Positions 18,701 through 59,045 of a DNA stretch of 64,000 nucleotides are shown here, in pieces (positions within the stretch are counted from its first letter, which is position 1; each line of letters opens with the position of its first letter). This stretch comes from Escherichia phage vB_Eco_Jura. The notes beneath the pieces were generated by a model that worked only from the letters and a program-made list of their open reading frames with translations, was not told the DNA's origin and searched no databases. The stretch lies in the sequence record LR999871. One strand, written 5' to 3'. The position numbers and the translations under genes were made by a program.

Positions 18701-20273
18701 CATCACGAATAGTAACTTCTGCTTCTGGTGCTTGAGCCATAGCTTCTTGTGCTGCCTGTGCAACATAGTCATCAGCAACAGGAGATGCTTCTTCATTCTG
18801 CTTCATAACCCGTTCACCACGAGCTACCAAAGTGTTCTTAATAGGAGAAACAACCTTACCTGCTACACTACCAGCAGCTTTAACACCAGCCATTGTGGTA
18901 CGCAATACAGGAGCAGTTGCAGCACCTGCTAAACGAGCAGCACCAGCCGGAGCCTGTACAACACCAGCAGAACCAAAGCCATAAAGAGCACCTAAACCAG
19001 CTTGTGTACCGACACCTTTAAGCAGGTCTTGGTTCTTATCAATGTTTTGTTGCTGTGCAATATTCTGAGCCAGTTGGCCTGTAGCACCCTGAACACCTTC
19101 TTCCACTGTTTCACGGGCAAGGTTCATACCTACAGCACCTAAAGAACCAGCACGGAAAGGAGCCATCTCAAAACGAGATACTAGAGGACCAGTTGCAGCA
19201 GCAATAGGTAATTGAATAGCAGCAGCAGTAAGACCAGTTTCAGATGCAGTCTGACGACGAGCCTGTTCTGGAGACATACCATCTTTAATATGTTGTTGAT
19301 AAACAGGAGACTTCTCTAAGTCTTTAAGACTCATCTTCATAATTTCATCAGCAGTTTGTTGGTATGCACCACCAGCTTCCATTGCACCAACACCAACCAT
19401 ACCTGGTGCAGCTCTGCCTACAGTAGAAGCAATACGAGCCAGTGACTGAGTACCAGTACCTGCATCAATAGCACCAGCCAATGCAGCACTACGAAGAGTA
19501 TTTGCTGGAACAACTGCTTTACCCAGTAAAGATGCACCCCTTAATACAGGACCAGCACCTAATAGAGAACCTACCCCTTCTGCTAACCCATCAGAAATAA
19601 TAGAGTCAGTTTGAGCAGCGTTCTCAATTGAACCTACAAAATCACGTCCAAATTTAGATAAGGAAGCTACTATGTCATTAGTGCCTTCTTTCTTATCTGT
19701 TTGATACTGACGTTCACTCTCTACTTCACTCATTAAGTTACGAGCAGCAAAGAGCTTACGTTTATCTTGTAATGCTTGGCTTTGGGTAGCATGGACAGCA
19801 TCATTAAACTTACTCAATTGTTGAGCAATGACAGCACCTGCATCATCGTTGAGTAAGCCTGCTCCAAGAGCACCAATGCCCCCAAGGGTATTAACAAAAC
19901 CAAGACCAACACCAGTAGCAATATCCCCCAGTTCTTCCCCAGGAGTTCTTGTAGTAATCGAATCATTGAATACTTGGTTCCCTGCATCAGCACGAGCGTT
20001 GATAAGTTGTAAGCCTTGCTCAACACCATACTTATTCATGATTTGCATTGGAGTCAGATTCATAAAATCTGATTGCACTGTCCCTGGTTCAAATGCATTA
20101 GCCCCAACATTACCAGTACGGGCAGCTTGCATTTGATAAGCAGCATCAGGAGAAACAAGAGGAGTAGTGACACCTTGTTCAGCTTTCTTCTGGGCGGTTG
20201 CAGTAGAGACGTCAACTTGCTTTGCATTGGTTACGCTGTCTGCGAACCCAGCCAGTCTATCAAATACTGACAT
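9771..20273 (-). CDS. virion-encapsidated giant RNA polymerase (N4 vRNAP-type), 3500 aa
   Basis: Track start 20291 is TTG inside the SD; first ATG at 20273 follows AGGAAA, giving exactly 3500 aa. Central region has T7-like motifs: EADGVTNGP (motif A-like), RGIAKNPLTITIYGSG (motif B, R-x3-K-x8-YG), IFDGMN (possible motif C). Confidence 0.85.
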   Translation of the reverse strand: MSVFDRLAGFADSVTNAKQVDVSTATAQKKAEQGVTTPLVSPDAAYQMQAARTGNVGANAFEPGTVQSDFMNLTPMQIMNKYGVEQGLQLINARADAGNQVFNDSITTRTPGEELGDIATGVGLGFVNTLGGIGALGAGLLNDDAGAVIAQQLSKFNDAVHATQSQALQDKRKLFAARNLMSEVESERQYQTDKKEGTNDIVASLSKFGRDFVGSIENAAQTDSIISDGLAEGVGSLLGAGPVLRGASLLGKAVVPANTLRSAALAGAIDAGTGTQSLARIASTVGRAAPGMVGVGAMEAGGAYQQTADEIMKMSLKDLEKSPVYQQHIKDGMSPEQARRQTASETGLTAAAIQLPIAAATGPLVSRFEMAPFRAGSLGAVGMNLARETVEEGVQGATGQLAQNIAQQQNIDKNQDLLKGVGTQAGLGALYGFGSAGVVQAPAGAARLAGAATAPVLRTTMAGVKAAGSVAGKVVSPIKNTLVARGERVMKQNEEASPVADDYVAQAAQEAMAQAPEAEVTIRDAVEATDATPEQKVAAHQYVSDLMNATRFNPENYQEAPEHIRNAVAGSTDQVQVIQKLADLVNTLDESNPQALMEAASYMYDAVSEFEQFINRDPAALDSIPKDSPAIELLNRYTNLTANIQNTPKVIGALNVINRMINESAQNGSLDVTEESSPQEMQNVALAAEVAPEKLNPESVNVVLKHAADGRIKLNNRQIAALQNAAAILKGAREYDAEAARLGLRPQDIVSKQIKTDESRTQEGQYSALQHANRIRSAYNSGNFELASAYLNDFMQFAQHMQNKVGALNEHLVTGNADKNKSVHYQALTADREWVRSRTGLGVNPYDTKSVKFAQQVALEAKTVADIANALASAYPELKVSHIKVTPLDSRLNAPAAEVVKAFRQGNRDVASSQQKADSVNQVKETPVTKQEPVTSTVQTKTPVSEPVKTEPTTKESRPQAIKEPVSQSEKRDVNLTNEDNIKQPTESVKETETSAKESTVTEELKEGIDAVYPSLVGTADSKAEGIKNYFKLSFTLPEEQKSRTVGSEAPLKDVAQALSSRARYELFTEKDVANPAFNGEVIKRYKELMEHGEGIADILRSRLAKFLNTKDVGKRFAQGTEANRWVGGKLLNIVEQDGDTFKYNEQLLQTAVLAGLQWRLTATSNTAIKDAKDVAAITGIDQALLPEGLVEQFDTGMTLTEAVSSLAQKIESYWGLSRNPNAPLGYTKGIPTAMAAEILAAFVESTDVVENIVDMSEIDPDNKKTIGLYTITELDSFDPINSFPTAIEEAVLVNPTEKMFFGDDIPPVANTQLRNPAVRNTPEQKAALKAEQATEFYVHTPMVQFYETLGKDRILELMGAGTLNKELLNDNHAKSLEGKNRSVEDSYNQLFSVIEQVRAQSEDISTVPIHYAYNMTRVGRMQMLGKYNPQSAKLVREAILPTKATLDLSNQNNEDFSAFQLGLAQALDIKVHTMTREVMSDELTKLLEGNLKPAIDMMVEFNTTGSLPENAVDVLNTALGDRKSFVALMALMEYSRYLVAEDKSAFVTPLYVEADGVTNGPINAMMLMTGGLFTPDWIRNIAKGGLFIGSPNKTMNEHRSTADNNDLYQASTNALMESLGKLRSNYASNMPIQSQIDSLLSLMDLFLPDINLGENGALELKRGIAKNPLTITIYGSGARGIAGKLVSSVTDAIYERMSDVLKARAKDPNISAAMAMFGKQAASEAHAEELLARFLKDMETLTSTVPVKRKGVLELQSTGAGAKGKINPKTYTIKGEQLKALQENMLHFFVEPLRNGITQTVGESLVYSTEQLQKATQIQSVVLEDMFKQRVQEKLAEKAKDPTWKKGDFLTQKELNDIQASLNNLAPMIETGSQTFYIAGSENAEVANQVLATNLDDRMRVPMSIYAPAQAGVAGIPFMTIGTGDGMMMQTLSTMKGAPKNTLKIFDGMNIGLNDITDASRKANEAVYTSWQGNPIKNVYESYAKFMKNVDFSKLSPEALEAIGKSALEYDQRENATVDDIANAASLIERNLRNIALGVDIRHKVLNKVNLSIDQMAAVGAPYQNNGKIDLSNMTPEQQADELNKLFREELEARKQKVAKAKAEVKEEIVSEKEPVNPDFGMVGREHKASGVRILSATAIRNLAKISNLPSTQAATLAEIQKSLAAKDYKIIYGTPTQVAEYARQKNVTELTSQEMEEAQAGNIYGWTNFDDKTIYLVSPSMETLIHELVHASTFEEVYSFYQGNEVSPTSKQAIENLEGLMEQFRSLDISKDSPEMREAYVDAIATIEGHLSNGFVDPAISKAAALNEFMAWGLANRALAAKQKRTSSLVQMVKDVYQAIKKLIWGRKQAPALGEDMFSNLLFNSAILMRSQPTTQAVAKDGTLFHSKAYGNNERLSQLNQTFDKLVTDYLRTDPVTEVERRGNVANALMSATRLVRDVQSRGFNMTAQEQSVFQMVTAALATEAAIDPHAMARAQELYTHVMKHLTVEHFMADPDSTNPADRYYAQQKYDTISGANLVEVDAKGRTSLLPTFLGLAMVNEELRSIIKEMPVPKADKKLGNDVDTLLTNAGTQVMESLNRRMAGDQKATNVQDSIDALSETIMAAALKRESFYDAVATPTGNFIDRANQYVMDSIERLSETVIEKADKVIANPSNVAAKGVAHLAKLTAAIASEKQGEIVAQGVMTAMNQGKVWQPFHDLVNDIVGRTKTNANVYDLIKLVKSQISQDRQQFREHLPTVIAGKFSRKLTDTEWSAMHTGLGKTDLAVLRETMSMAEIRDLLSSSKKVKDEISTLEKEIQNQAGRNWNLVQKKSKQLAQYMITGEVGNNLLRNAHAISRLLGERITNSPVADVAAIDKLTTLYSLELMNKSDRDLLSELAQSEVEGMEFSIAYMVGQRTEEMRKAKGDNRTLLNHFKGYIPVENQQGVNLIIADDKEFAKLNSQSFTRIGTYQGSTGFRTGSKGYYFSPVAARAPYSQGILQNVRNTAGGVDIGTGFTLGTMVAGRITDKPTVERITKALAKGERGREPLMPIYNSKGQVVAYEQSVDPNMLKHLNQDNHFAKMVGVWRGRQVEEAKAQRFNDILIEQLHAMYEKDIKDSSANKSQYVNLLGKIDDPVLADAINLMNIETRRKAEELFGKDELWVRRDMLNDALGYRAASIGDVWTGNSRWSPSTLDTVKKMFLGAFGNKAYHVVMNAENTIQNLVKDAKTVIVVKSVVVPAVNFLANIYQMIGRGVPVKDIAVNIPRKTSEINQYIKSRLRQIDAEAELRAAEGNPNLVRKLKTEIQSITDSHRRMSIWPLIEAGEFSSIADAGISRDDLLVAEGKIHEYMEKLANKLPEKVRNAGRYALIAKDTALFQGIQKTVEYSDFIAKAIIYDDLVKRKKKSSSEALGQVTEEFVNYDRLPGRFRGYMESMGLMWFYNFKIRSIKVAMSMIRNNPVHSLIATVVPAPAMFGNVGLPIQDNMLTMLAEGRLDYSLGFGQGLRAPTLNPWFNLTH

Positions 20274-20336
20274 AGTAGGTTTCCTATACAAACTTATATC
20301 TATTAGAAATCACACTATACCTAGTGTAAGGACGAG

Positions 20337-53581: not shown

Positions 53582-53896
53582 ATGGCTAATAAGAACCGTC
53601 TTCGTGTATGGCATATCCCTCAAGTACCCGGCAAAGCCTTCTATGTTGAAGTAGATTCAGTAGAAGAAGGTGTACGTATCATTGATATACTAGCCAACTA
53701 TGACCTATTCCAGTATGAGAACAATATCAAAGGTGATTACTGCAATGTCTCTGGTTTACAGATGTATGATGAACATATCACTGATGATGAAATGGAAGAG
53801 ATGGGTCTGACTGACCGTTGGGTAGACTGGTACTATGAAGATGACCAGAGCTTTTTTGATAACCCGAAAGAGTATTTGAATAATCTCAAGAAGTAA
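53582..53896 (+). CDS. acidic protein (104 aa), function unknown
   Basis: ATG preceded by AGGAGAG; Asp/Glu/Tyr-rich C-terminus. Confidence 0.6.
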   Translation: MANKNRLRVWHIPQVPGKAFYVEVDSVEEGVRIIDILANYDLFQYENNIKGDYCNVSGLQMYDEHITDDEMEEMGLTDRWVDWYYEDDQSFFDNPKEYLNNLKK

Positions 53897-53970: not shown

Positions 53971-54177
53971 ATGTTTAAGTTCTTAGACCTTATCTGGGCA
54001 GTCATTTTGCTGGTTGCTACAGGCTTTGTATATGGCTTCTTGCTCCCATCAATGATGTCTGCTTTAGACAGCATCATTGTTGTTATGGGCTTGATAGTCT
54101 GTATTGTGTGGCCTCTTATCGTAGGCCGTATCGTTTATCTTACAGTTAAGAAAAGGATGAGAAGAAAACATGTATAA
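53971..54177 (+). CDS. small two-TM membrane protein (68 aa), partner of the SPFH gene
   Basis: ATG preceded by ACGGAG; two hydrophobic helices and a basic C-terminus (KKRMRRKHV); 3' end overlaps the SPFH gene start. Confidence 0.5.
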   Translation: MFKFLDLIWAVILLVATGFVYGFLLPSMMSALDSIIVVMGLIVCIVWPLIVGRIVYLTVKKRMRRKHV

Positions 54178-55006
54178 GTACATTGCAGTAGCAATTGCAG
54201 GGCTAATCATTGCTCTAAGTTTAACGAGCTGCTATGACCGAGTTGAACCAGGTAATGTAGGTATTATCGTTAATCGTCTCGGTGAAGATAAAGGTGTGGA
54301 AAATGAGGTTAAAGGTGTAGGCCGTTACTGGCTCACTTGGAATGAAGAACTTTATACATTCCCGACCTTTAAGCAGATGAAGACCTATGATGGTCTGTTT
54401 TACTTCCAACTGTCTGATGGTACTCAGATAGGCCACCAGATGGCTATCAGCTATAAAGTGAACCCTACTAAGGTAACTAATATCTTCCAGACGTATCGTA
54501 AGGGAGTTAATGAAATTACCGAGCAGGATTTACGACAACGTATTGCTGATGTACTTAACAGACAGGGTAACCTGATTAACACTGATACATTTATTGATGG
54601 TGGTAAATCTAAGCTACTGGATAGTGTCACTGACACAATCCGTAAAGAGATGGAACCAGTAGGGATTGATATTATTGCTATCTCCTGGATTGGTGCTCCT
54701 GAATACCCTGATAATGTTAAACGTGCCATTAATGCCAAAGTAGAAGCTACTCAGAAAACTCTGCAACGTGAGCAAGAGATTCAGCAACGTGTAGCTGAAG
54801 CTAATATGGAACGTGAACAAGCTAAGGGTGTAGCAGATGCTATCCTGATTAAAGCTAAAGCAGAGGCTGATGCTATTCGTTTACGTGGTGAAGCACTCAC
54901 CGAGAACCCAAATGTAATGCAACTGGAAGCCATTAATAAGTGGAATGGTACATTACCTACCACAATGATTCCTGGGGCTACTACACCTTTCGTTAATGTG
55001 AAATAA
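54170..55006 (+). CDS. SPFH/band-7 (stomatin/prohibitin/HflK-C-like) lipoprotein
   Basis: N-terminal lipoprotein signal IAGLIIALSLTSC; SPFH-type core (VEPGNVGIIVNRLGE ... ISYKVNP) followed by an Ala/Glu/Gln-rich coiled coil (QREQEIQQRVAEANMEREQAKGVADAILIKAKAEADAIRLRGEA). Confidence 0.6.
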   Translation: MYKYIAVAIAGLIIALSLTSCYDRVEPGNVGIIVNRLGEDKGVENEVKGVGRYWLTWNEELYTFPTFKQMKTYDGLFYFQLSDGTQIGHQMAISYKVNPTKVTNIFQTYRKGVNEITEQDLRQRIADVLNRQGNLINTDTFIDGGKSKLLDSVTDTIRKEMEPVGIDIIAISWIGAPEYPDNVKRAINAKVEATQKTLQREQEIQQRVAEANMEREQAKGVADAILIKAKAEADAIRLRGEALTENPNVMQLEAINKWNGTLPTTMIPGATTPFVNVK

Positions 55007-55013
55007 CTAAGCA

Positions 55014-55042
55014 AACCCACCATTACGGTGGGTTTATTTTTT
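55014..55042 (+). terminator. rho-independent terminator
   Basis: Stem AACCCACC/GGTGGGTT, loop ATTAC, then TTATTTTTT. Confidence 0.7.
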
Positions 55043-55294: not shown

Positions 55295-55651
55295 ATGGCT
55301 CAAGAAAAGAATCGTCGTCAGACACTTATCGAACGTATTCAGGCCAGAATCAAATTACAGGACTTAGGCTATACCGTTAATGGTCAGCCTAGTCTCTGTC
55401 ACATCTGGACTGGTTCACATTCAGGTAATGGACGTGGTGGGCAATATGGCAGGATTTCCGTGAATGGAGTTACCTCTGCAACTCACATTATTGCCTATAC
55501 CCATTATCATGGTTATATCCCCAATAAGATGCAAGTAGACCATCTCTGTAATAATCGTCTGTGCTGTAACCCTGAACATCTTGAATTGGTTACTCACCAA
55601 GAGAACCAGAGAAGAAGGGCTAAGCGTTCTAAATCTAAAGGAAATAAATAA
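55295..55651 (+). CDS. HNH endonuclease (second copy)
   Basis: ATG 2 nt after the upstream stop; HIWTGSHSGNGRGGQYGRISVNG ... VDHLCNNRLCCNPEHLELVTHQENQRR is a typical HNH nuclease core with a basic tail. Confidence 0.7.
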   Translation: MAQEKNRRQTLIERIQARIKLQDLGYTVNGQPSLCHIWTGSHSGNGRGGQYGRISVNGVTSATHIIAYTHYHGYIPNKMQVDHLCNNRLCCNPEHLELVTHQENQRRRAKRSKSKGNK

Positions 55652-55851: not shown

Positions 55852-56910
55852 ATGGCTAGTATTGATTCTATTGCCGTATGTAATCCACGGCAGGTACGTA
55901 AATTTGTTGAACACTGTATCCGTTCAGGATTGGTTCCATTTATCACTTCATCTCCTGGTATGGGTAAATCTGCAATTGTTCATCAGATTGCAGAAGATTT
56001 TGGTCTGAAACTGATTGACCATCGTCTGTCTACTTCAGCACCAGAAGACCTGTCAGGTCTGCCTCGTTTTAAAGAAAATGGTCGTGCTGAATTTGCTCCA
56101 TTTGACGAGCTATTCCCACTGGAAGGGGATACTGTACCTGAAGGATTTAATGGCTGGCTCCTTTTTCTCGATGAGTTTAACTCTGCTCGTAAAGAGATTC
56201 AGGCTGCTGCTTATAAACTGGTACTCGACCGTATGACTGGTCAGAAGAAGCTACATCCTTATGTAGCTATCGTATGTGCTGGTAACAAAGCAACTGACCG
56301 TGCCATTACTAATAACCTGTCTACAGCTATGCAATCACGCCTTATTCATCTGGAAATGGAGACTGATTTTGATGTCTTTATGGAAGATGTAGCTATCCCT
56401 AACAAGTGGGATGAACGTGTAATTGCATTCCTGAATGCTAACCCAAATAAACTGAATGATTTTGAACCAGACCATCAAGAGAAGACTTTCTGTTGTTCTC
56501 GTACATGGGAGTTCGTTAACAAGATTGTTTCCATTCTCCCACCGGGACCGATTGATAGTGAAATGACTCTGCTGTTAGCAGGCACTATCACTTCTGGTGT
56601 AGCAACATCATTCGTCCAGTTTACTCAGGTCTATAGCAACATGGTGTCTTTGAATGAGATTTTGGATAATCCTAAGAAAGCTCGTATGCCTGAAGACAAT
56701 AACCTGTTGTGGGCTGTAGTCACTTCACTAATTAACAATACTGACGAAGATAATCATTCGAAAATCTTTGATTACGTTGAACGTATGCCGTTTACGTTCA
56801 AGGTTTTGTACTACCGTTCTGTAGGTAGTTTGGTTCCAGCTTTGGTTAAATTACCAAACTGGCGTGTTGCTGCAATCACATTATCTAAATACGTTCATGG
56901 TTCCAATTAA
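55852..56910 (+). CDS. AAA+ ATPase, MoxR-like
   Basis: ATG preceded by GGAGAG; Walker A SSPGMGKSAIV, Walker B LLFLDEFN, sensor-like VCAGN. Confidence 0.75.
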   Translation: MASIDSIAVCNPRQVRKFVEHCIRSGLVPFITSSPGMGKSAIVHQIAEDFGLKLIDHRLSTSAPEDLSGLPRFKENGRAEFAPFDELFPLEGDTVPEGFNGWLLFLDEFNSARKEIQAAAYKLVLDRMTGQKKLHPYVAIVCAGNKATDRAITNNLSTAMQSRLIHLEMETDFDVFMEDVAIPNKWDERVIAFLNANPNKLNDFEPDHQEKTFCCSRTWEFVNKIVSILPPGPIDSEMTLLLAGTITSGVATSFVQFTQVYSNMVSLNEILDNPKKARMPEDNNLLWAVVTSLINNTDEDNHSKIFDYVERMPFTFKVLYYRSVGSLVPALVKLPNWRVAAITLSKYVHGSN

Positions 56911-57076
56911 CAAGAAAGGAGTTACAGACCTCCTGTATGTTGCTGGCTTTAACGGTGAAGAAATTACCGTATATGCCCCAAGTCTGGCTGCTGCTAAACA
57001 AAAGGCAGTTGAATACTTTCGTCCAAAGAAACGTGTAGCCCATACTATTTGGGTTCATCTCGCAGAGGAAAACTGA
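56864..57076 (+). CDS. questionable small ORF (70 aa by track)
   Basis: Track start is TTG; the only in-frame ATG (56897) lacks an SD and lies inside the ATPase 3' end. Confidence 0.2.
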   Translation: MLLQSHYLNTFMVPINKKGVTDLLYVAGFNGEEITVYAPSLAAAKQKAVEYFRPKKRVAHTIWVHLAEEN

Positions 57077-57077
57077 T

Positions 57078-58220
57078 ATGTCCATGACAGATGCTCAATT
57101 AACCCGTGAATATGACAGATGTCAGGCTAAAGCCTTTATGGGCAAAACTGCTGCATTCTTTGGTTCACTGTTATGTTCTCTGAAGTTCCGTTGGGTAAAA
57201 GATGGCTGTGATACAGCACAAACCGATGGTGAGCATCTCGAATGGAATCCTGATTGGTTTGAGAGTCTATTACCTGAATCTCGTGTAACAGTACTCATGC
57301 ATGAACTATGGCATGTCGGCTTACTGCATTCTGTTCGTATGGGTTCTCGTGACCCAGAAGTATGGAATTATGCCTGTGATATTTATATCAACAATCAGCT
57401 TATTCAGGATGGCTACAGCTTTATAGGAATCGAAAATTGCTGGAAAGACCCTAAGTATGCTGGTTGGGCTGAAGAACAAATCTATGATGACCTCATGAGC
57501 AAACAGATACGTCCTCCTAAAGCATCAGGTGCTTTTGGGACTGGCTCAGGTGGTGACATGAAACCTTCCACTTCGAAGGCTAGTCAGGTGAATATTGTCA
57601 ATAATGTAGTAAGAGCCATGCACCAACAGAAACTATCTGGTGGTTCTTTGCCTGGGGTATTACCTGGAAAAATGGAAGAAGTTATTACTCAATTCCTGAA
57701 ACCAGTAGTACCGTGGCAGGTTTTACTTGAACGCTTCTTCAATGACCTGCAAGAAACTTACTACTCATGGCAACGGCCTAATCGTAGATACCCTGATATG
57801 TACCTACCATCCCCTATGGATGATGACGGTAGACTGGAACATCTGGCTTATTTCCTCGATACATCTGGCTCCATTAAACCTAAAGATGCTTTACGCTTTA
57901 GCTCTGAAGTGGCCTATGTAAAAGAGAAATATCAGCCTCAGAAGATGACTCTAGTTCAGTTCACTACAGAGATTGTAGATGAACAAGTCGTTGAAGATGG
58001 TGATAAGTTTACTGATGTCACTATCAAAGGACGAGGTGGTACTAGTCTGGTTCCTGTACGTGAGTGGATTATTAAGCATAAGCCTACTGCTGCCATTATC
58101 TTTACTGACTTAGAAGTCAGACCGATGGAACCATTGCCATTTGATATTCCTGTCATATGGGTAGTTATTCGTAACCCTGGTGCACAAGTTCCATTTGGGA
58201 AAGTTATTAACATTACATGA
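57078..58220 (+). CDS. vWA-domain protein with N-terminal HExxH metallopeptidase-like motif (MoxR partner)
   Basis: ATG preceded by GAGGAAAA; N-terminal VLMHELWHVGLLH (HExxH); C-terminal vWA MIDAS-like LAYFLDTSGSIKPKD. Confidence 0.7.
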   Translation: MSMTDAQLTREYDRCQAKAFMGKTAAFFGSLLCSLKFRWVKDGCDTAQTDGEHLEWNPDWFESLLPESRVTVLMHELWHVGLLHSVRMGSRDPEVWNYACDIYINNQLIQDGYSFIGIENCWKDPKYAGWAEEQIYDDLMSKQIRPPKASGAFGTGSGGDMKPSTSKASQVNIVNNVVRAMHQQKLSGGSLPGVLPGKMEEVITQFLKPVVPWQVLLERFFNDLQETYYSWQRPNRRYPDMYLPSPMDDDGRLEHLAYFLDTSGSIKPKDALRFSSEVAYVKEKYQPQKMTLVQFTTEIVDEQVVEDGDKFTDVTIKGRGGTSLVPVREWIIKHKPTAAIIFTDLEVRPMEPLPFDIPVIWVVIRNPGAQVPFGKVINIT

Positions 58221-59022: not shown

Positions 59023-59045
59023 GCCCACTTTATGTGGGCTTTTTT
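59023..59045 (+). terminator. rho-independent terminator
   Basis: Stem GCCCAC/GTGGGC, loop TTTAT, then TTTTTT; preceded by a second hairpin at 58963-58981. Confidence 0.65.

What the first reader, a model, noticed from the sequence alone, without database searches (positions are those of the whole stretch)
55852..58220. MoxR-type AAA+ ATPase paired with a vWA protein that carries an HExxH metallopeptidase-like motif
The ATPase (Walker A/B, VCAGN) is followed by a 380-aa protein with N-terminal HELWH and a C-terminal vWA domain with a D-x-S-G-S MIDAS motif. MoxR-vWA pairs act as chaperone/metal-insertion systems; the added HExxH motif suggests a latent protease or metal site. The target of such a system in a phage early region (virion maturation or a host factor) is unknown.
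Basis: partly seen in the sequence, partly recalled or inferred. Interest (0 to 1): 0.45.

Follow-up and report, generated by a model that had tools for sequence, protein, structure and literature searches.

The report
Known N4 ATPase–protease-adaptor gene pair
These are the long-known gp24 and gp25 genes of phage N4: a ring-forming motor ATPase and a partner that carries a protein-grabbing domain and a zinc-protease-like domain. Every N4-like phage has them, but nobody has tested what they do.

Summary
The window is an Enquatrovirus genome (99.8% identical to phage PMBT57, 97.9% to N4), and the two ORFs are N4 gp24 and gp25.

- **gp24 (55852-56910):** an AAA+ ATPase. Its predicted fold is closest to the MoxR-class enzymes CbbQ and NorQ.
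- **gp25 (57078-58220):** Pfam DUF2201_N (zincin, E 1e-86) plus DUF2201 (VWA, E 2e-46).
- **Motif conservation:** HExxHx4H is 92-96% conserved, and the MIDAS residues D-x-S-x-S…T…D are 98-100% conserved, across 150 cluster representatives.
- **Gene linkage:** the ATPase lies directly upstream of gp25 in 77 of 77 related phage loci. The same pairing is seen in most non-schitovirus phages sampled, in conjugative plasmids and in most bacterial loci sampled.

None of this is new. gp24 and gp25 have been listed as core genes of N4-like phages since 2009-2014. The MoxR + metallopeptidase-vWA pair was described in jumbo phages in 2021. The genes are middle genes, not early ones.

The function is untested. 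I infer an ATP-driven remodeller whose adaptor captures a target through MIDAS and clips it with the zincin, acting inside the cell at the replication stage.

In relatives, an intein and an HNH homing-endonuclease insertion (probable group I intron) sit in the most conserved motifs, which suggests both genes are indispensable.

Interest is low to moderate.

The parts
55852..56910 (+). gp24 orthologue: MoxR-class (CbbQ/NorQ-like) AAA+ ATPase, 352 aa, 39.5 kDa
   Evidence: 99.8-97.9% nt identity to PMBT57 and N4, where it is gp24 'ATPase'. phrog_1297 'ATPase' E 1e-136. Pfam AAA_5 and AAA hits are just below cut-off. The AF2 model (pLDDT 88) best matches CbbQ 6l1q and NorQ 9qh4/9qhd in Foldseek (E 3e-9).
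55951..55974 (+). Walker A / P-loop SPGMGKSA (K39)
   Evidence: Read from the sequence. G38, K39 and S40 are invariant in 42 homologues.
56041..56097 (+). Predicted helix-2 insert: conserved PEDLSGLP followed by a beta-hairpin (aa 64-82)
   Evidence: DSSP of the model shows strands 70-73 and 79-82 between core strands beta2 and beta3. P64, D66, G69, L70 and P71 are invariant. In CbbQ/NorQ this element lines the pore that takes the VWA 'finger' (PMC9976466). The assignment here is an inference.
56158..56178 (+). Walker B LLFLDEF (D107, E108)
   Evidence: Read from the sequence. D107 and E108 are invariant. In phage U1G an HNH homing-endonuclease insert (probable group I intron) splits the gene exactly here.
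56272..56286 (+). Sensor-1 strand VCAGN (N145)
   Evidence: Read from the sequence. A143, G144 and N145 are invariant.
56338..56340 (+). R163, candidate arginine finger just before core strand beta5
   Evidence: Invariant. Its position, N-terminal to strand 164-169 in the model, matches the MoxR arginine finger described in PMC7159879. This is an inference.
56897..57076 (+). 59-aa basic ORF (pI 9.1) between the two genes; an accessory gene, not part of the core module
   Evidence: phrog_19202 E 2e-33. Annotated in PMBT57 and AL25. Found in only 15 of about 80 related loci, always between the ATPase and the VWA gene. In many other loci the two genes abut within 0-14 nt.
57078..58220 (+). gp25 orthologue: zincin + VWA adaptor protein, 380 aa, 43.3 kDa
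   Evidence: N4 gp25. Pfam DUF2201_N E 1.3e-86 and DUF2201 E 1.9e-46. 14,156 cluster representatives at E<=1e-3.
57105..57812 (+). N-terminal zincin-like domain (aa 10-245, Pfam DUF2201_N)
   Evidence: Domain match. Weak secondary matches among 83 family members: PhageMetallopep in 19, SprT-like in 14 (best 6e-5), Peptidase_M48 in 14. hhalign of the family profile against E. coli SprT gives E 2.6e-4. Weak profile hits to minigluzincin MJ1213, BepA and HtpX.
57300..57329 (+). HELWHVGLLH = HExxHx4H, putative zinc site (H75, E76, H79, H84)
   Evidence: Conservation in 150 representatives: H75 96%, E76 92%, H79 95%, H84 92%, with Asp as the main replacement at H84. Invariant in 50 phage homologues and in 6 distant bacterial or plasmid homologues. 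H84 aligns with the third His of SprT. Its role as third ligand is inferred.
57366..57380 (+). NYACD of the WNxACD motif (N97, A99, C100, D101), second conserved block of the zincin domain; W96 lies just upstream at 57363-57365
   Evidence: Conservation: W96 86%, N97 91%, A99 96%, D101 98%. Two homologues carry inteins inserted between A99 and C100.
57843..58217 (+). C-terminal VWA domain (aa 256-380, Pfam DUF2201)
57858..57872 (+). MIDAS motif part 1, DTSGS (D261, S263, S265)
   Evidence: All three residues are 100% conserved in 151 sequences.
58041..58043 (+). MIDAS threonine T322 (in GRGGTS)
   Evidence: 98% conserved.
58107..58109 (+). MIDAS aspartate D344 (in IIFTD)
   Evidence: 99% conserved.
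55013..55035 (+). Terminator-like hairpin that closes the upstream unit, so the unit holding the pair starts after it
   Evidence: 9-bp stem with a T-run. Annotated as a terminator at the same place in phage AL25.
59023..59039 (+). Terminator-like hairpin ending the unit gp21-gp22(HNH)-gp23-gp24-small ORF-gp25-gp26(dCTP deaminase)-gp27
   Evidence: Hairpin found. AL25 annotation. Neighbour domains.

Best explanation
**What it is.** The two ORFs are the orthologues of phage N4 gp24 and gp25. They form a conserved two-gene module.

**What is shown.**
- gp24 is a MoxR-class AAA+ ATPase of the CbbQ/NorQ type. All catalytic motifs are intact.
- gp25 is an adaptor with an N-terminal SprT-like zincin domain (HExxHx4H) and a C-terminal VWA domain with a complete MIDAS.
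- The two genes are almost always adjacent and co-oriented in phages, plasmids and bacteria.

**How it most likely works (inferred from CbbQ-CbbO and NorQ-NorD).**
1. gp24 forms a hexameric ring.
2. One gp25 docks on the ring through its VWA domain.
3. The MIDAS-bound Mg2+ captures an acidic side chain of a target protein.
4. ATP hydrolysis by the ring is passed through the VWA domain and its linker, remodelling the captured protein or gp25 itself.
5. The tethered zincin domain then cleaves the target.

The result would be an ATP-gated, adaptor-delivered protease working in trans.

**Target class (inferred, weakest step).** I favour an intracellular housekeeping job at the middle, DNA-replication stage. 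The target would be a conserved protein or nucleoprotein complex of the phage's own replication or transcription apparatus, or proteins bound to its DNA. I favour this over virion maturation or a strain-specific anti-defence role.
For: **Identity**
- 97.9-99.8% nt identity to N4 and PMBT57, with matching gene annotations.

**ATPase class**
- AF2 model with pLDDT 88. Its strand pattern shows a helix-2 insert hairpin and a pre-sensor-1 hairpin.
- Best Foldseek hits are CbbQ and the NorQ/NorQD complexes.
- The profile's best PDB sequence hit is midasin.
- Walker A, Walker B, sensor 1 and R163 are invariant.

**Adaptor**
- MIDAS 98-100% conserved and zincin residues 92-98% conserved.
- The same residues are invariant in distant bacterial relatives.
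- SprT-like affinity.

**Coupling**
- ATPase directly upstream in 77 of 77 phage loci.
- The same holds in Asteriusvirus jumbo phages, where the ATPase scores hhalign E 2e-29.
- It also holds in conjugative and other plasmids and in six of the seven bacterial chromosomal loci read; no ATPase was called upstream in L101.

**Mechanistic template**
- In NorQD, a VWA 'finger' enters the NorQ pore, MIDAS binds the target rather than the ATPase, and ATPase activity remodels the NorD linker (PMC9976466; PMC13036017).

**Stage and place**
- N4 middle transcripts (PMC4193335).
- One terminator-bounded unit shared with dCTP deaminase, next to ThyX and rIIA.

**Housekeeping importance**
- Core genes of all N4-like phages (PMC4193335; PMC7650795).
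- Inteins sit in the WNxA|CD motif of gp25 homologues, and an HNH homing-endonuclease insert, probably a group I intron, sits at Walker B of a gp24 orthologue.

**Not virion-specific**
- Homologous pairs occur on conjugative plasmids next to T4SS, toprim and ParB genes, and in bacterial operons with UvrD helicases.
Against: - No experiment on gp24 or gp25 was found in the searchable literature. ATPase activity, complex formation, proteolysis and substrate are all untested.
- Pfam AAA_5 and AAA matches of gp24 are below the curated cut-offs, and NCBIfam has no model.
- No solved structure resembles the N-terminal domain in the lists obtained. The VWA hits crowd them out. The zincin fold and the third ligand therefore rest on sequence only.
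- The SprT match is weak (probability 42%).
- gp25's VWA domain is minimal, and a NorD-like 'finger' was not identified.
- The target class is argued from context only.
- In Asteriusvirus the pair is flanked by structural genes. The only published proposal is virion assembly (PMC7824862).
Confidence: 0.5

Rival explanations
1. Virion-assembly chaperone and protease. The pair would help fold, load or trim structural or ejected proteins, such as the 3,500-aa virion RNA polymerase, during particle assembly. Iyer et al. proposed this for the same architecture in jumbo phages, by analogy with ATV p618/p892.
For: - Published proposal for the jumbo-phage MoxR + metallopeptidase-vWA pair (PMC7824862).
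- The ATV MoxR/VWA precedent, cited there and in PMC7911831.
- In Asteriusvirus Ecwhy_1 the pair is flanked by genes annotated as structural.
- Roseophages have a second structural module near the gp24/gp25 homologues (PMC4193335).
- Core-gene status fits a morphogenetic role.
Against: - These are middle genes, co-transcribed with nucleotide-metabolism genes and on the opposite strand from the late structural block.
- Homologous pairs live on conjugative plasmids and in bacterial operons that make no virions.
- The phages carrying it have different morphologies: podoviruses and myoviruses of several families.
Confidence: 0.2
2. Host-takeover or counter-defence protease. The module would capture and destroy a host protein, either a defence factor or a conserved host regulator, when a mobile element enters a new cell.
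For: - The pair is shared by phages and conjugative plasmids, which face the same host barriers.
- Bacterial relatives sit in neighbourhoods that look like defence islands, with BrxL, Cas6, UvrD helicases, toxin-antitoxin pairs and an E2/JAB/ThiF set. This suggests a conflict-related module.
- vWA proteins fused to peptidases are effectors in known MoxR-vWA conflict systems (PMC7159879; PMC12839542).
- Zincin anti-restriction proteins of the ArdC type are noted in phages (PMC7824862).
Against: - The pair is universally conserved and slowly evolving in Schitoviridae, at 50-60% identity across genera and hosts from Escherichia to Roseobacter. This is unlike typical accessory anti-defence genes.
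- It is expressed in the middle class, not the early class.
- There is no match to any PADLOC model.
Confidence: 0.15
3. Pure chaperone or metal-handling pair with a non-proteolytic zincin-like domain. The HExxH site would only bind a metal or a peptide, and the pair would remodel or metallate a client as NorQD and CbbQO do, without cutting it.
For: - All characterised CbbQ/NorQ-type pairs are remodellers, not proteases (PMC9976466, PMC13036017).
- The catalytic activity of DUF2201_N has never been shown.
- About 4-8% of representatives lack one of the HExxH residues.
Against: - The catalytic Glu (E76, 92%) is conserved along with the three His. A mere metal-binding site would not need it.
- The affinities are to active peptidase families: SprT-like, M48 and PhageMetallopep.
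- N4 encodes no obvious metalloenzyme client.
Confidence: 0.1

Closest known systems
Phage N4 gp24 / gp25 (Schitoviridae core genes)
   Same: These are orthologues: 97.9% nt identity over the whole stretch, with the same order and neighbours. They are listed among the 14 core genes of N4-like phages as 'unknown' and 'vWFA domain' (PMC4193335), and as 'AAA+ ATPase' and 'gp25' (PMC7650795). Phage genome papers already annotate gp25 homologues as pfam13203 metallopeptidase (PMC6992544).
   Different: Nothing of substance. This genome also annotates the 59-aa ORF between them, which the N4 record leaves unannotated.
MoxR AAA+ ATPase + metallopeptidase-vWA pair of group 2.2 jumbo phages (Iyer, Anantharaman, Krishnan, Burroughs, Aravind 2021, PMC7824862)
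   Same: Same architecture and same families. The Asteriusvirus ATPase matches the gp24 profile at hhalign E 2e-29. Its neighbour matches gp25 over 96% of its length.
   Different: Those are 350-kb myoviruses, where the pair sits among structural genes. Here it is a core middle gene of a 70-kb podovirus. The proposed virion-maturation role has not been tested in either.
CbbQ-CbbO (Rubisco activase) and NorQ-NorD (FeB insertion into nitric oxide reductase)
   Different: - Sequence identity is only 16-18%.
- gp24 has about 90 extra C-terminal residues.
- gp25's N-terminal domain is a zincin, not a client-specific domain.
- gp25's VWA domain is much smaller, and no 'finger' was recognised.
- No metalloenzyme client is known.
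Acidianus two-tailed virus p618 (MoxR) / p892 (VWA)
   Same: A virus-encoded MoxR + VWA pair thought to act as chaperone and co-chaperone (cited in PMC7824862 and PMC7911831).
   Different: It is an archaeal virus with no peptidase domain, and its role is tied to extracellular tail growth. Homology to gp24/gp25 was not tested here.
MoxR-vWA ternary conflict systems (VMAP, iSTAND, FtsH, beta-propeller; Kaur et al. 2020, PMC7159879)
   Same: A MoxR-vWA couple in which the vWA protein is often fused to a peptidase effector thought to stay inactive until triggered.
   Different: The phage has no third component. The peptidase is a zincin of another family. gp24 lacks the N-terminal motifs described for VMAP-type MoxR. 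Only one bacterial relative gave a sub-threshold hit to Pfam bpMoxR.
SprT/Wss1-like minimal zincins (and ArdC-type plasmid zincins)
   Same: HExxH followed a few residues later by a third His, preceded by a TDG…NP strand-loop. Weak but repeated profile matches.
   Different: The spacing is x4 rather than x5. There is no zinc ribbon or DNA-binding domain. Similarity is marginal (hhalign probability 42%). DNA dependence is unknown.

Membership tests
N4 gp24/gp25 orthologous pair (Schitoviridae core genes) | Sequence orthology and conserved position between gp23 and gp26 (dCTP deaminase) | tested here: met
   97.9% nt identity to N4 over 2,769 nt, with the same flanking genes.
MoxR-class AAA+ ATPase (CbbQ/GvpN/NorQ subgroup) | AAA+ core with Walker A, Walker B, sensor 1 and arginine finger | tested here: met
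   Motifs are present and invariant in 42 homologues.
MoxR-class AAA+ ATPase (CbbQ/GvpN/NorQ subgroup) | Helix-2 insert and pre-sensor-1 beta-hairpin; fold closest to known MoxR members | tested here: met
   The predicted strand pattern shows 70-73/79-82 and 132-134 before strand 138-145. Top Foldseek hits are CbbQ 6l1q and NorQ 9qh4/9qhd, E 3e-9, target TM 0.64-0.67. This rests on a predicted model, not a solved structure.
MoxR-class AAA+ ATPase (CbbQ/GvpN/NorQ subgroup) | Match to the curated sequence models (Pfam AAA_5 or AAA_3; NCBIfam) | tested here: not met
   AAA_5 scores 19.3 bits against a cut-off of 22, AAA scores 19.6 against 21.2, and there is no AAA_3 or NCBIfam hit. Bacterial members of the same ATPase family do pass AAA_5 at 25-47 bits, and RefSeq names them 'MoxR family ATPase'.
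MoxR-class AAA+ ATPase (CbbQ/GvpN/NorQ subgroup) | Genomic pairing with a VWA-domain protein | tested here: met
   Directly upstream of the VWA gene in 77 of 77 related phage loci, and in the plasmid and most bacterial loci sampled.
MoxR-class AAA+ ATPase (CbbQ/GvpN/NorQ subgroup) | Hexameric ring; ATPase activity stimulated or coupled by the VWA partner | not testable with these tools
   Needs biochemistry, cryo-EM or a multimer prediction.
VWA domain with MIDAS | Rossmann-like VWA fold | tested here: met
VWA domain with MIDAS | DxSxS … T … D metal-ion-dependent adhesion site | tested here: met
   D261, S263 and S265 are 100% conserved, T322 98% and D344 99% in 151 sequences.
Zincin metallopeptidase (Pfam DUF2201_N; SprT-like affinity) | HExxH on an active-site helix plus a third zinc ligand | tested here: inconclusive
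   HExxH is 92-96% conserved. H84 (92%, replaced by Asp in 7 sequences) is the likely third ligand and aligns with that of SprT. D101 or E133 cannot be excluded, because no coordinates or structural neighbours were obtained for this domain.
Zincin metallopeptidase (Pfam DUF2201_N; SprT-like affinity) | Match to the curated family model | tested here: met
   DUF2201_N at 291 bits against a cut-off of 23.2, covering profile positions 2-269 of 271.
Zincin metallopeptidase (Pfam DUF2201_N; SprT-like affinity) | Peptidase activity | not testable with these tools
   No assay was found for any member of the family.
HNH endonuclease (the label RefSeq and PHROG give to gp25) | HNH / His-Me finger domain | tested here: not met
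   gp25 has only DUF2201_N and DUF2201. The real HNH_3 protein is the neighbour gp22 at 55295-55651. The label on phrog_1314 and NC_008720 gp25 is an annotation error.
Known anti-phage defence or candidate systems (PADLOC-DB 2.0) | Match to any model | tested here: not met
   No hit for the phage proteins. Bacterial relatives give only marginal P-loop hits.

The most novel reading that the evidence does not exclude
The module could be a machine that clears proteins from DNA. A SprT-like protease would be delivered by a MoxR motor and strip tightly bound proteins from the incoming or replicating genome. In Schitoviridae, which inject a giant RNA polymerase that stays on the DNA, this would license the switch from early transcription to replication. 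In conjugative plasmids the same module would process proteins that travel with the transferred strand. In bacteria it would work with UvrD-type helicases and HEAT/LRV-repeat proteins in an undescribed multi-gene system. My evidence does not exclude this. The only support is the weak SprT affinity, the middle-stage DNA-metabolism context, and the helicase, BRCT and HIRAN neighbours of bacterial relatives.
Probability: 0.08. Interest if true: 0.75.

Novelty: already known. Interest (0 to 1): 0.3.

Why it matters
gp24 and gp25 are two of only about 14 genes shared by all N4-like phages. Apart from gp53, gp55 and gp69, they are among the few core genes with no assigned role. The same pair is spread over jumbo phages, rV5-like phages, conjugative plasmids and thousands of bacterial gene clusters. 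Learning its substrate would fill a gap in the N4 life cycle. It would also assign a function to a very large 'domain of unknown function' family (DUF2201) and show how a MoxR motor can be coupled to a protease. The finding itself adds nothing to what databases and papers already state.

Tried and rejected
1. **The 59-aa ORF as a third subunit: rejected.** A profile search finds it in only 15 of about 80 related loci. In many loci the two genes abut.
2. **The ~300-aa gene between ATPase and VWA on Burkholderia and Rhodovastum plasmids as a conserved partner: rejected.** The two are homologous to each other (32% identity), but have no relative in the phage loci, Arcobacter or Thermus.
3. **The 'anti-sigma factor' gene upstream of the rV5-like gp25 homologue as a hidden ATPase: rejected.** hhalign probability is 0.2%. 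In that phage the MoxR ATPase lies about 3 kb away on the other strand.
4. **Known defence or anti-defence family: no support.** No PADLOC hits.
5. **NCBIfam:** no model.
6. **PDB by sequence:** nothing significant for either protein alone. A profile of the ATPase reaches only midasin (E 0.002).
7. **Structural neighbours of the zincin domain:** both PDB searches of the whole gp25 model returned only VWA hits.
8. **The single genome-contig scan was spent on one protein.** It gave only two close loci, one of them a 69-kb 'archaeon MAG' contig that encodes a gp24-gp25 pair at 68% identity and so is probably phage-derived. Bacterial context was recovered instead through plasmids and the look-up of encoding contigs.
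9. **Literature:** ten full-text searches found no functional study of gp24/gp25 or DUF2201. The ATV paper could not be fetched.


Full report
**1. What the window is**

A 2.8-kb stretch around the finding is 99.8% identical to Escherichia phages PMBT57, SPSP and AL25, and 97.9% identical to phage N4. In the N4 records the two ORFs are gp24 ('ATPase; similar to S. coel. protein 1') and gp25 ('similar to S. coel. protein 2'). They lie between gp23 and gp26, the dCTP deaminase. The window is therefore an Enquatrovirus (Schitoviridae) genome, and the finding concerns two named genes.

**2. Check of the observation**

- gp24, 55852-56910, 352 aa: Walker A SPGMGKSA (aa 34-41), Walker B LLFLDEF (103-109), VCAGN (141-145).
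- gp25, 57078-58220, 380 aa: HELWH (75-79) and DTSGS (261-265).

Chance would give about 0.008 HExxH and 0.006 DxSGS motifs in a protein of this composition. More to the point, gp25 matches Pfam DUF2201_N ('putative metallopeptidase domain', E 1.3e-86) and DUF2201 ('VWA-like domain', E 1.9e-46), far above the curated cut-offs.

It overlaps the end of gp24 by 14 nt and ends one base before the gp25 start codon. It belongs to phrog_19202 and is annotated in PMBT57 and AL25.

**3. The ATPase**

Sequence models barely see gp24. Pfam AAA_5 and AAA are just below threshold, NCBIfam has nothing, and PDB by sequence gives only midasin at E 0.002 with a family profile.

An AlphaFold2 model built on 42 homologues is confident (pLDDT 88, pTM 0.79). 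Its best matches among solved structures are the MoxR-class ATPases CbbQ (6l1q, 5c3c) and NorQ (the 2026 NorQ and NorQD cryo-EM entries). These come ahead of dynein, midasin, MCM and the MoxR-proper protein 2r44.

The model shows a beta-hairpin between core strands 2 and 3 (a helix-2 insert) and a short strand before the sensor-1 strand, which I read as the pre-sensor-1 hairpin. These are the marks of this clade. The P-loop, D107/E108, N145 and R163 (just before strand 5, the position of the MoxR arginine finger) are invariant in the alignment.

'MoxR-type' is therefore right, more precisely CbbQ/NorQ-like. Two caveats apply: the curated sequence models are not passed, and about 90 C-terminal residues have no counterpart in CbbQ or NorQ.

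**4. The partner**

An exhaustive search found 14,156 cluster representatives at E<=1e-3. Aligning the best 150, at 34-51% identity, gave these conservation figures:

| Site | Residues and conservation |
|---|---|
| MIDAS | D261, S263, S265 100%; T322 98%; D344 99% |
| Zincin site | H75 96%; E76 92%; H79 95%; H84 92% (Asp is the main substitute) |
| Other zincin-domain residues | R87 94%; N97 91%; A99 96%; D101 98% |

The same residues are invariant in 50 phage homologues. They are also invariant in six bacterial or plasmid relatives that share only 22-45% identity.

The zincin domain has no solved relative by sequence. There are weak profile matches to the minigluzincin MJ1213 and to the M48 proteases BepA and HtpX. 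Among 83 family members, 19 also touch Pfam PhageMetallopep, 14 SprT-like (best 6e-5) and 14 Peptidase_M48.

A profile-sequence comparison with E. coli SprT gives E 2.6e-4 (probability 42%). It aligns the TDG…NP segment, HExxH and the following His. I read the site as HExxHx4H of the SprT/Wss1 kind, but the third ligand is not proven.

**5. Linkage of the two genes**

Eighty related loci were fetched from IMG/VR, nearly all on contigs of 30-78 kb. In all 77 that include upstream DNA, a gp24 homologue lies upstream on the same strand. In many the two genes are 0-14 nt apart. In others the gap holds unrelated inserts.

The 59-aa ORF occurs in only 15 loci, always in that gap. It is an accessory passenger, not a subunit.

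Outside Schitoviridae, gp25 homologues occur in 688 phage records and gp24 homologues in 840.

- Asteriusvirus jumbo phages: the ATPase is adjacent and clearly the same family (hhalign E 2e-29).
- rV5-like phages: the ATPase is about 3 kb away on the other strand.
- Also a cyanophage and large Pseudomonas phages.

Seventy-seven plasmids carry gp25 homologues.

- Burkholderia and Rhodovastum plasmids: the order is ATPase, a ~300-aa unknown gene, then DUF2201. It sits next to T4SS genes or to toprim and ParB genes. The plasmid ATPase aligns with gp24 over its full length (E 8e-30).
- Synechocystis pSYSA, Thermus oshimai pTHEOS01 and a Miltoncostaea plasmid: a 'MoxR family ATPase' lies directly upstream.

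Seven bacterial chromosomal or metagenomic loci were read, and six have an AAA_5 ATPase directly upstream. The two genes are a co-inherited module.

**6. What is already known**

- Zhao et al. [quoted passage not shown]
- Chan et al. 2014 include both among the 14 core genes of N4-like phages and call them middle transcripts (PMC4193335).
- Wittmann et al. 2020 list 'AAA+ ATPase' gp24 and gp25 in the family panproteome (PMC7650795).
- Phage genome papers annotate gp25 homologues as pfam13203 metallopeptidase (PMC6992544).
- Iyer et al. [quoted passage not shown] They propose virion assembly with peptidolytic processing, by analogy with Acidianus two-tailed virus (PMC7824862).

I found no experimental work on the pair in ten full-text searches. 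The finding is a correct re-reading of a known, functionally open gene pair.

**7. How it probably works**

The best template is NorQ-NorD and CbbQ-CbbO.

- One VWA protein binds a hexameric MoxR ring.
- A protrusion of the VWA domain enters the pore lined by the helix-2 inserts.
- MIDAS binds the client, not the ATPase.
- ATP hydrolysis remodels a linker of the adaptor and, through it, the client (PMC9976466; PMC13036017).

Applied here, gp24 would be the ring and gp25 the adaptor. MIDAS would capture an acidic residue of a target, and the zincin, tethered about 10 residues upstream of the VWA domain, would cut it. Conservation of the catalytic Glu together with the three His argues for a working peptidase rather than a mere metal site. 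All of this is inference. Nothing here shows a complex, ATPase activity or cleavage.

**8. Which target?**

Several observations bear on this.

1. The genes are middle genes. They lie in one unit bounded by terminator-like hairpins at 55013-55035 and 59023-59039, together with an HNH endonuclease, a small membrane protein and dCTP deaminase. ThyX and rIIA follow downstream. The late structural genes are on the other strand.
2. The pair is a slowly evolving core gene pair across hosts from Escherichia to roseobacters. This does not fit a typical accessory anti-defence gene.
3. Homing elements have settled in the most conserved motifs.
   - Two gp25 homologues carry inteins between A99 and C100 of the WNxA|CD motif.
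   - In phage U1G the gp24 orthologue is split exactly at Walker B, between …LLFL and DEFNSA…. The ~880-nt insert holds an HNH homing endonuclease and a sub-threshold group I intron match.
   - This is the usual habitat of such elements: indispensable genes.
4. The module also lives on conjugative plasmids and in bacterial operons, so it is not tied to virions.
5. Sampled bacterial relatives sit with UvrD-type helicases, a 720-750-aa unknown protein and HEAT/LRV-repeat proteins. These lie near BrxL, Cas6 or toxin-antitoxin genes.

From these I favour an intracellular, replication-stage housekeeping role on a conserved protein or nucleoprotein complex. Virion assembly (0.2) and host takeover or counter-defence (0.15) remain live rivals.

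**9. Verdict**

- The kind of system and this very gene pair are already known.
- Interest is low to moderate. It comes only from the fact that a universally conserved core module of Schitoviridae, and the huge DUF2201 family, still lack a tested function.

Noticed in passing
window 57078-58220; NC_008720 gp25; phrog_1314: RefSeq and PHROGs label gp25 and many of its homologues 'HNH endonuclease'. The protein has no HNH domain, only DUF2201_N and DUF2201. The real HNH_3 protein is gp22 at 55295-55651. This is a propagated annotation error.
   Followed up: yes
proteins P0248 and P0252 (gp25 homologues), equivalent to window 57372/57375 (between A99 and C100): Two gp25 homologues carry inteins at the same site, inside the conserved WNxA|CD motif of the zincin domain. 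Both have canonical Cys…HN|Cys boundaries. P0252 passes the Pfam Intein_splicing cut-off.
   Followed up: yes
L103 (Escherichia phage U1G, MZ394712) 1501-3435; equivalent to window 56169/56170: The gp24 orthologue is interrupted exactly at Walker B (…LLFL | DEFNSA…) by about 880 nt. The insert holds an HNH homing endonuclease and a sub-threshold Rfam group I intron match (23.7 bits against 50). Pseudomonas phage ZC03 also shows the ATPase in two pieces with an HNH gene.
   Followed up: partly
L094, L095, L096, L097, L098/L099, L100, L101; L090 (Thermus oshimai pTHEOS01): Bacterial relatives of the pair recur in larger operons. Cyanobacterial loci have HEAT/LRV/DUF2336-repeat proteins and pentapeptide-WD40 proteins. 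Thermus-type loci have a 315-320-aa protein, MoxR, DUF2201, a 720-750-aa unknown protein and a UvrD helicase, next to BrxL or Cas6. This could be an undescribed multi-gene (defence-like?) system. PADLOC has no model for it.
   Followed up: partly
L085 6013-6942, L086 6066-6965: Burkholderia and Rhodovastum plasmids carry a homologous ~300-aa gene (32% identity) with no Pfam match, wedged between the ATPase and the DUF2201 gene. It lies next to T4SS or toprim/ParB genes.
   Followed up: partly
window 56897-57076: A 59-aa basic ORF (phrog_19202). Its homologues occur in 15 of about 80 related phage loci, always in the gap between the ATPase and the VWA gene. N4's own record leaves it unannotated.
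   Followed up: yes
L087 (Acinetobacter baumannii 'plasmid' pRBH2-3, NZ_CP110465, 75 kb); L003 ('archaeon' MAG contig JANQNF010000027, 69 kb): Both records look like N4-like phage genomes filed under other labels. pRBH2-3 carries a phage-type RNA polymerase gene and the gp24/gp25 pair. The 'archaeon' contig encodes a gp24-gp25 pair at 68% identity to this one.
   Followed up: no
window 54170-55006 and 53582-53896: gp20 is an SPFH/Band 7 (prohibitin-like) protein with an N-terminal lipoprotein-like signal. gp18 matches the P22 gp17 superinfection-exclusion family. Both lie just upstream of the unit that holds the pair.
   Followed up: no
window 7700-8375: Four tRNA genes cluster on the + strand upstream of the 3,506-aa virion RNA polymerase ORF (9771-20291, minus strand).
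   Followed up: no
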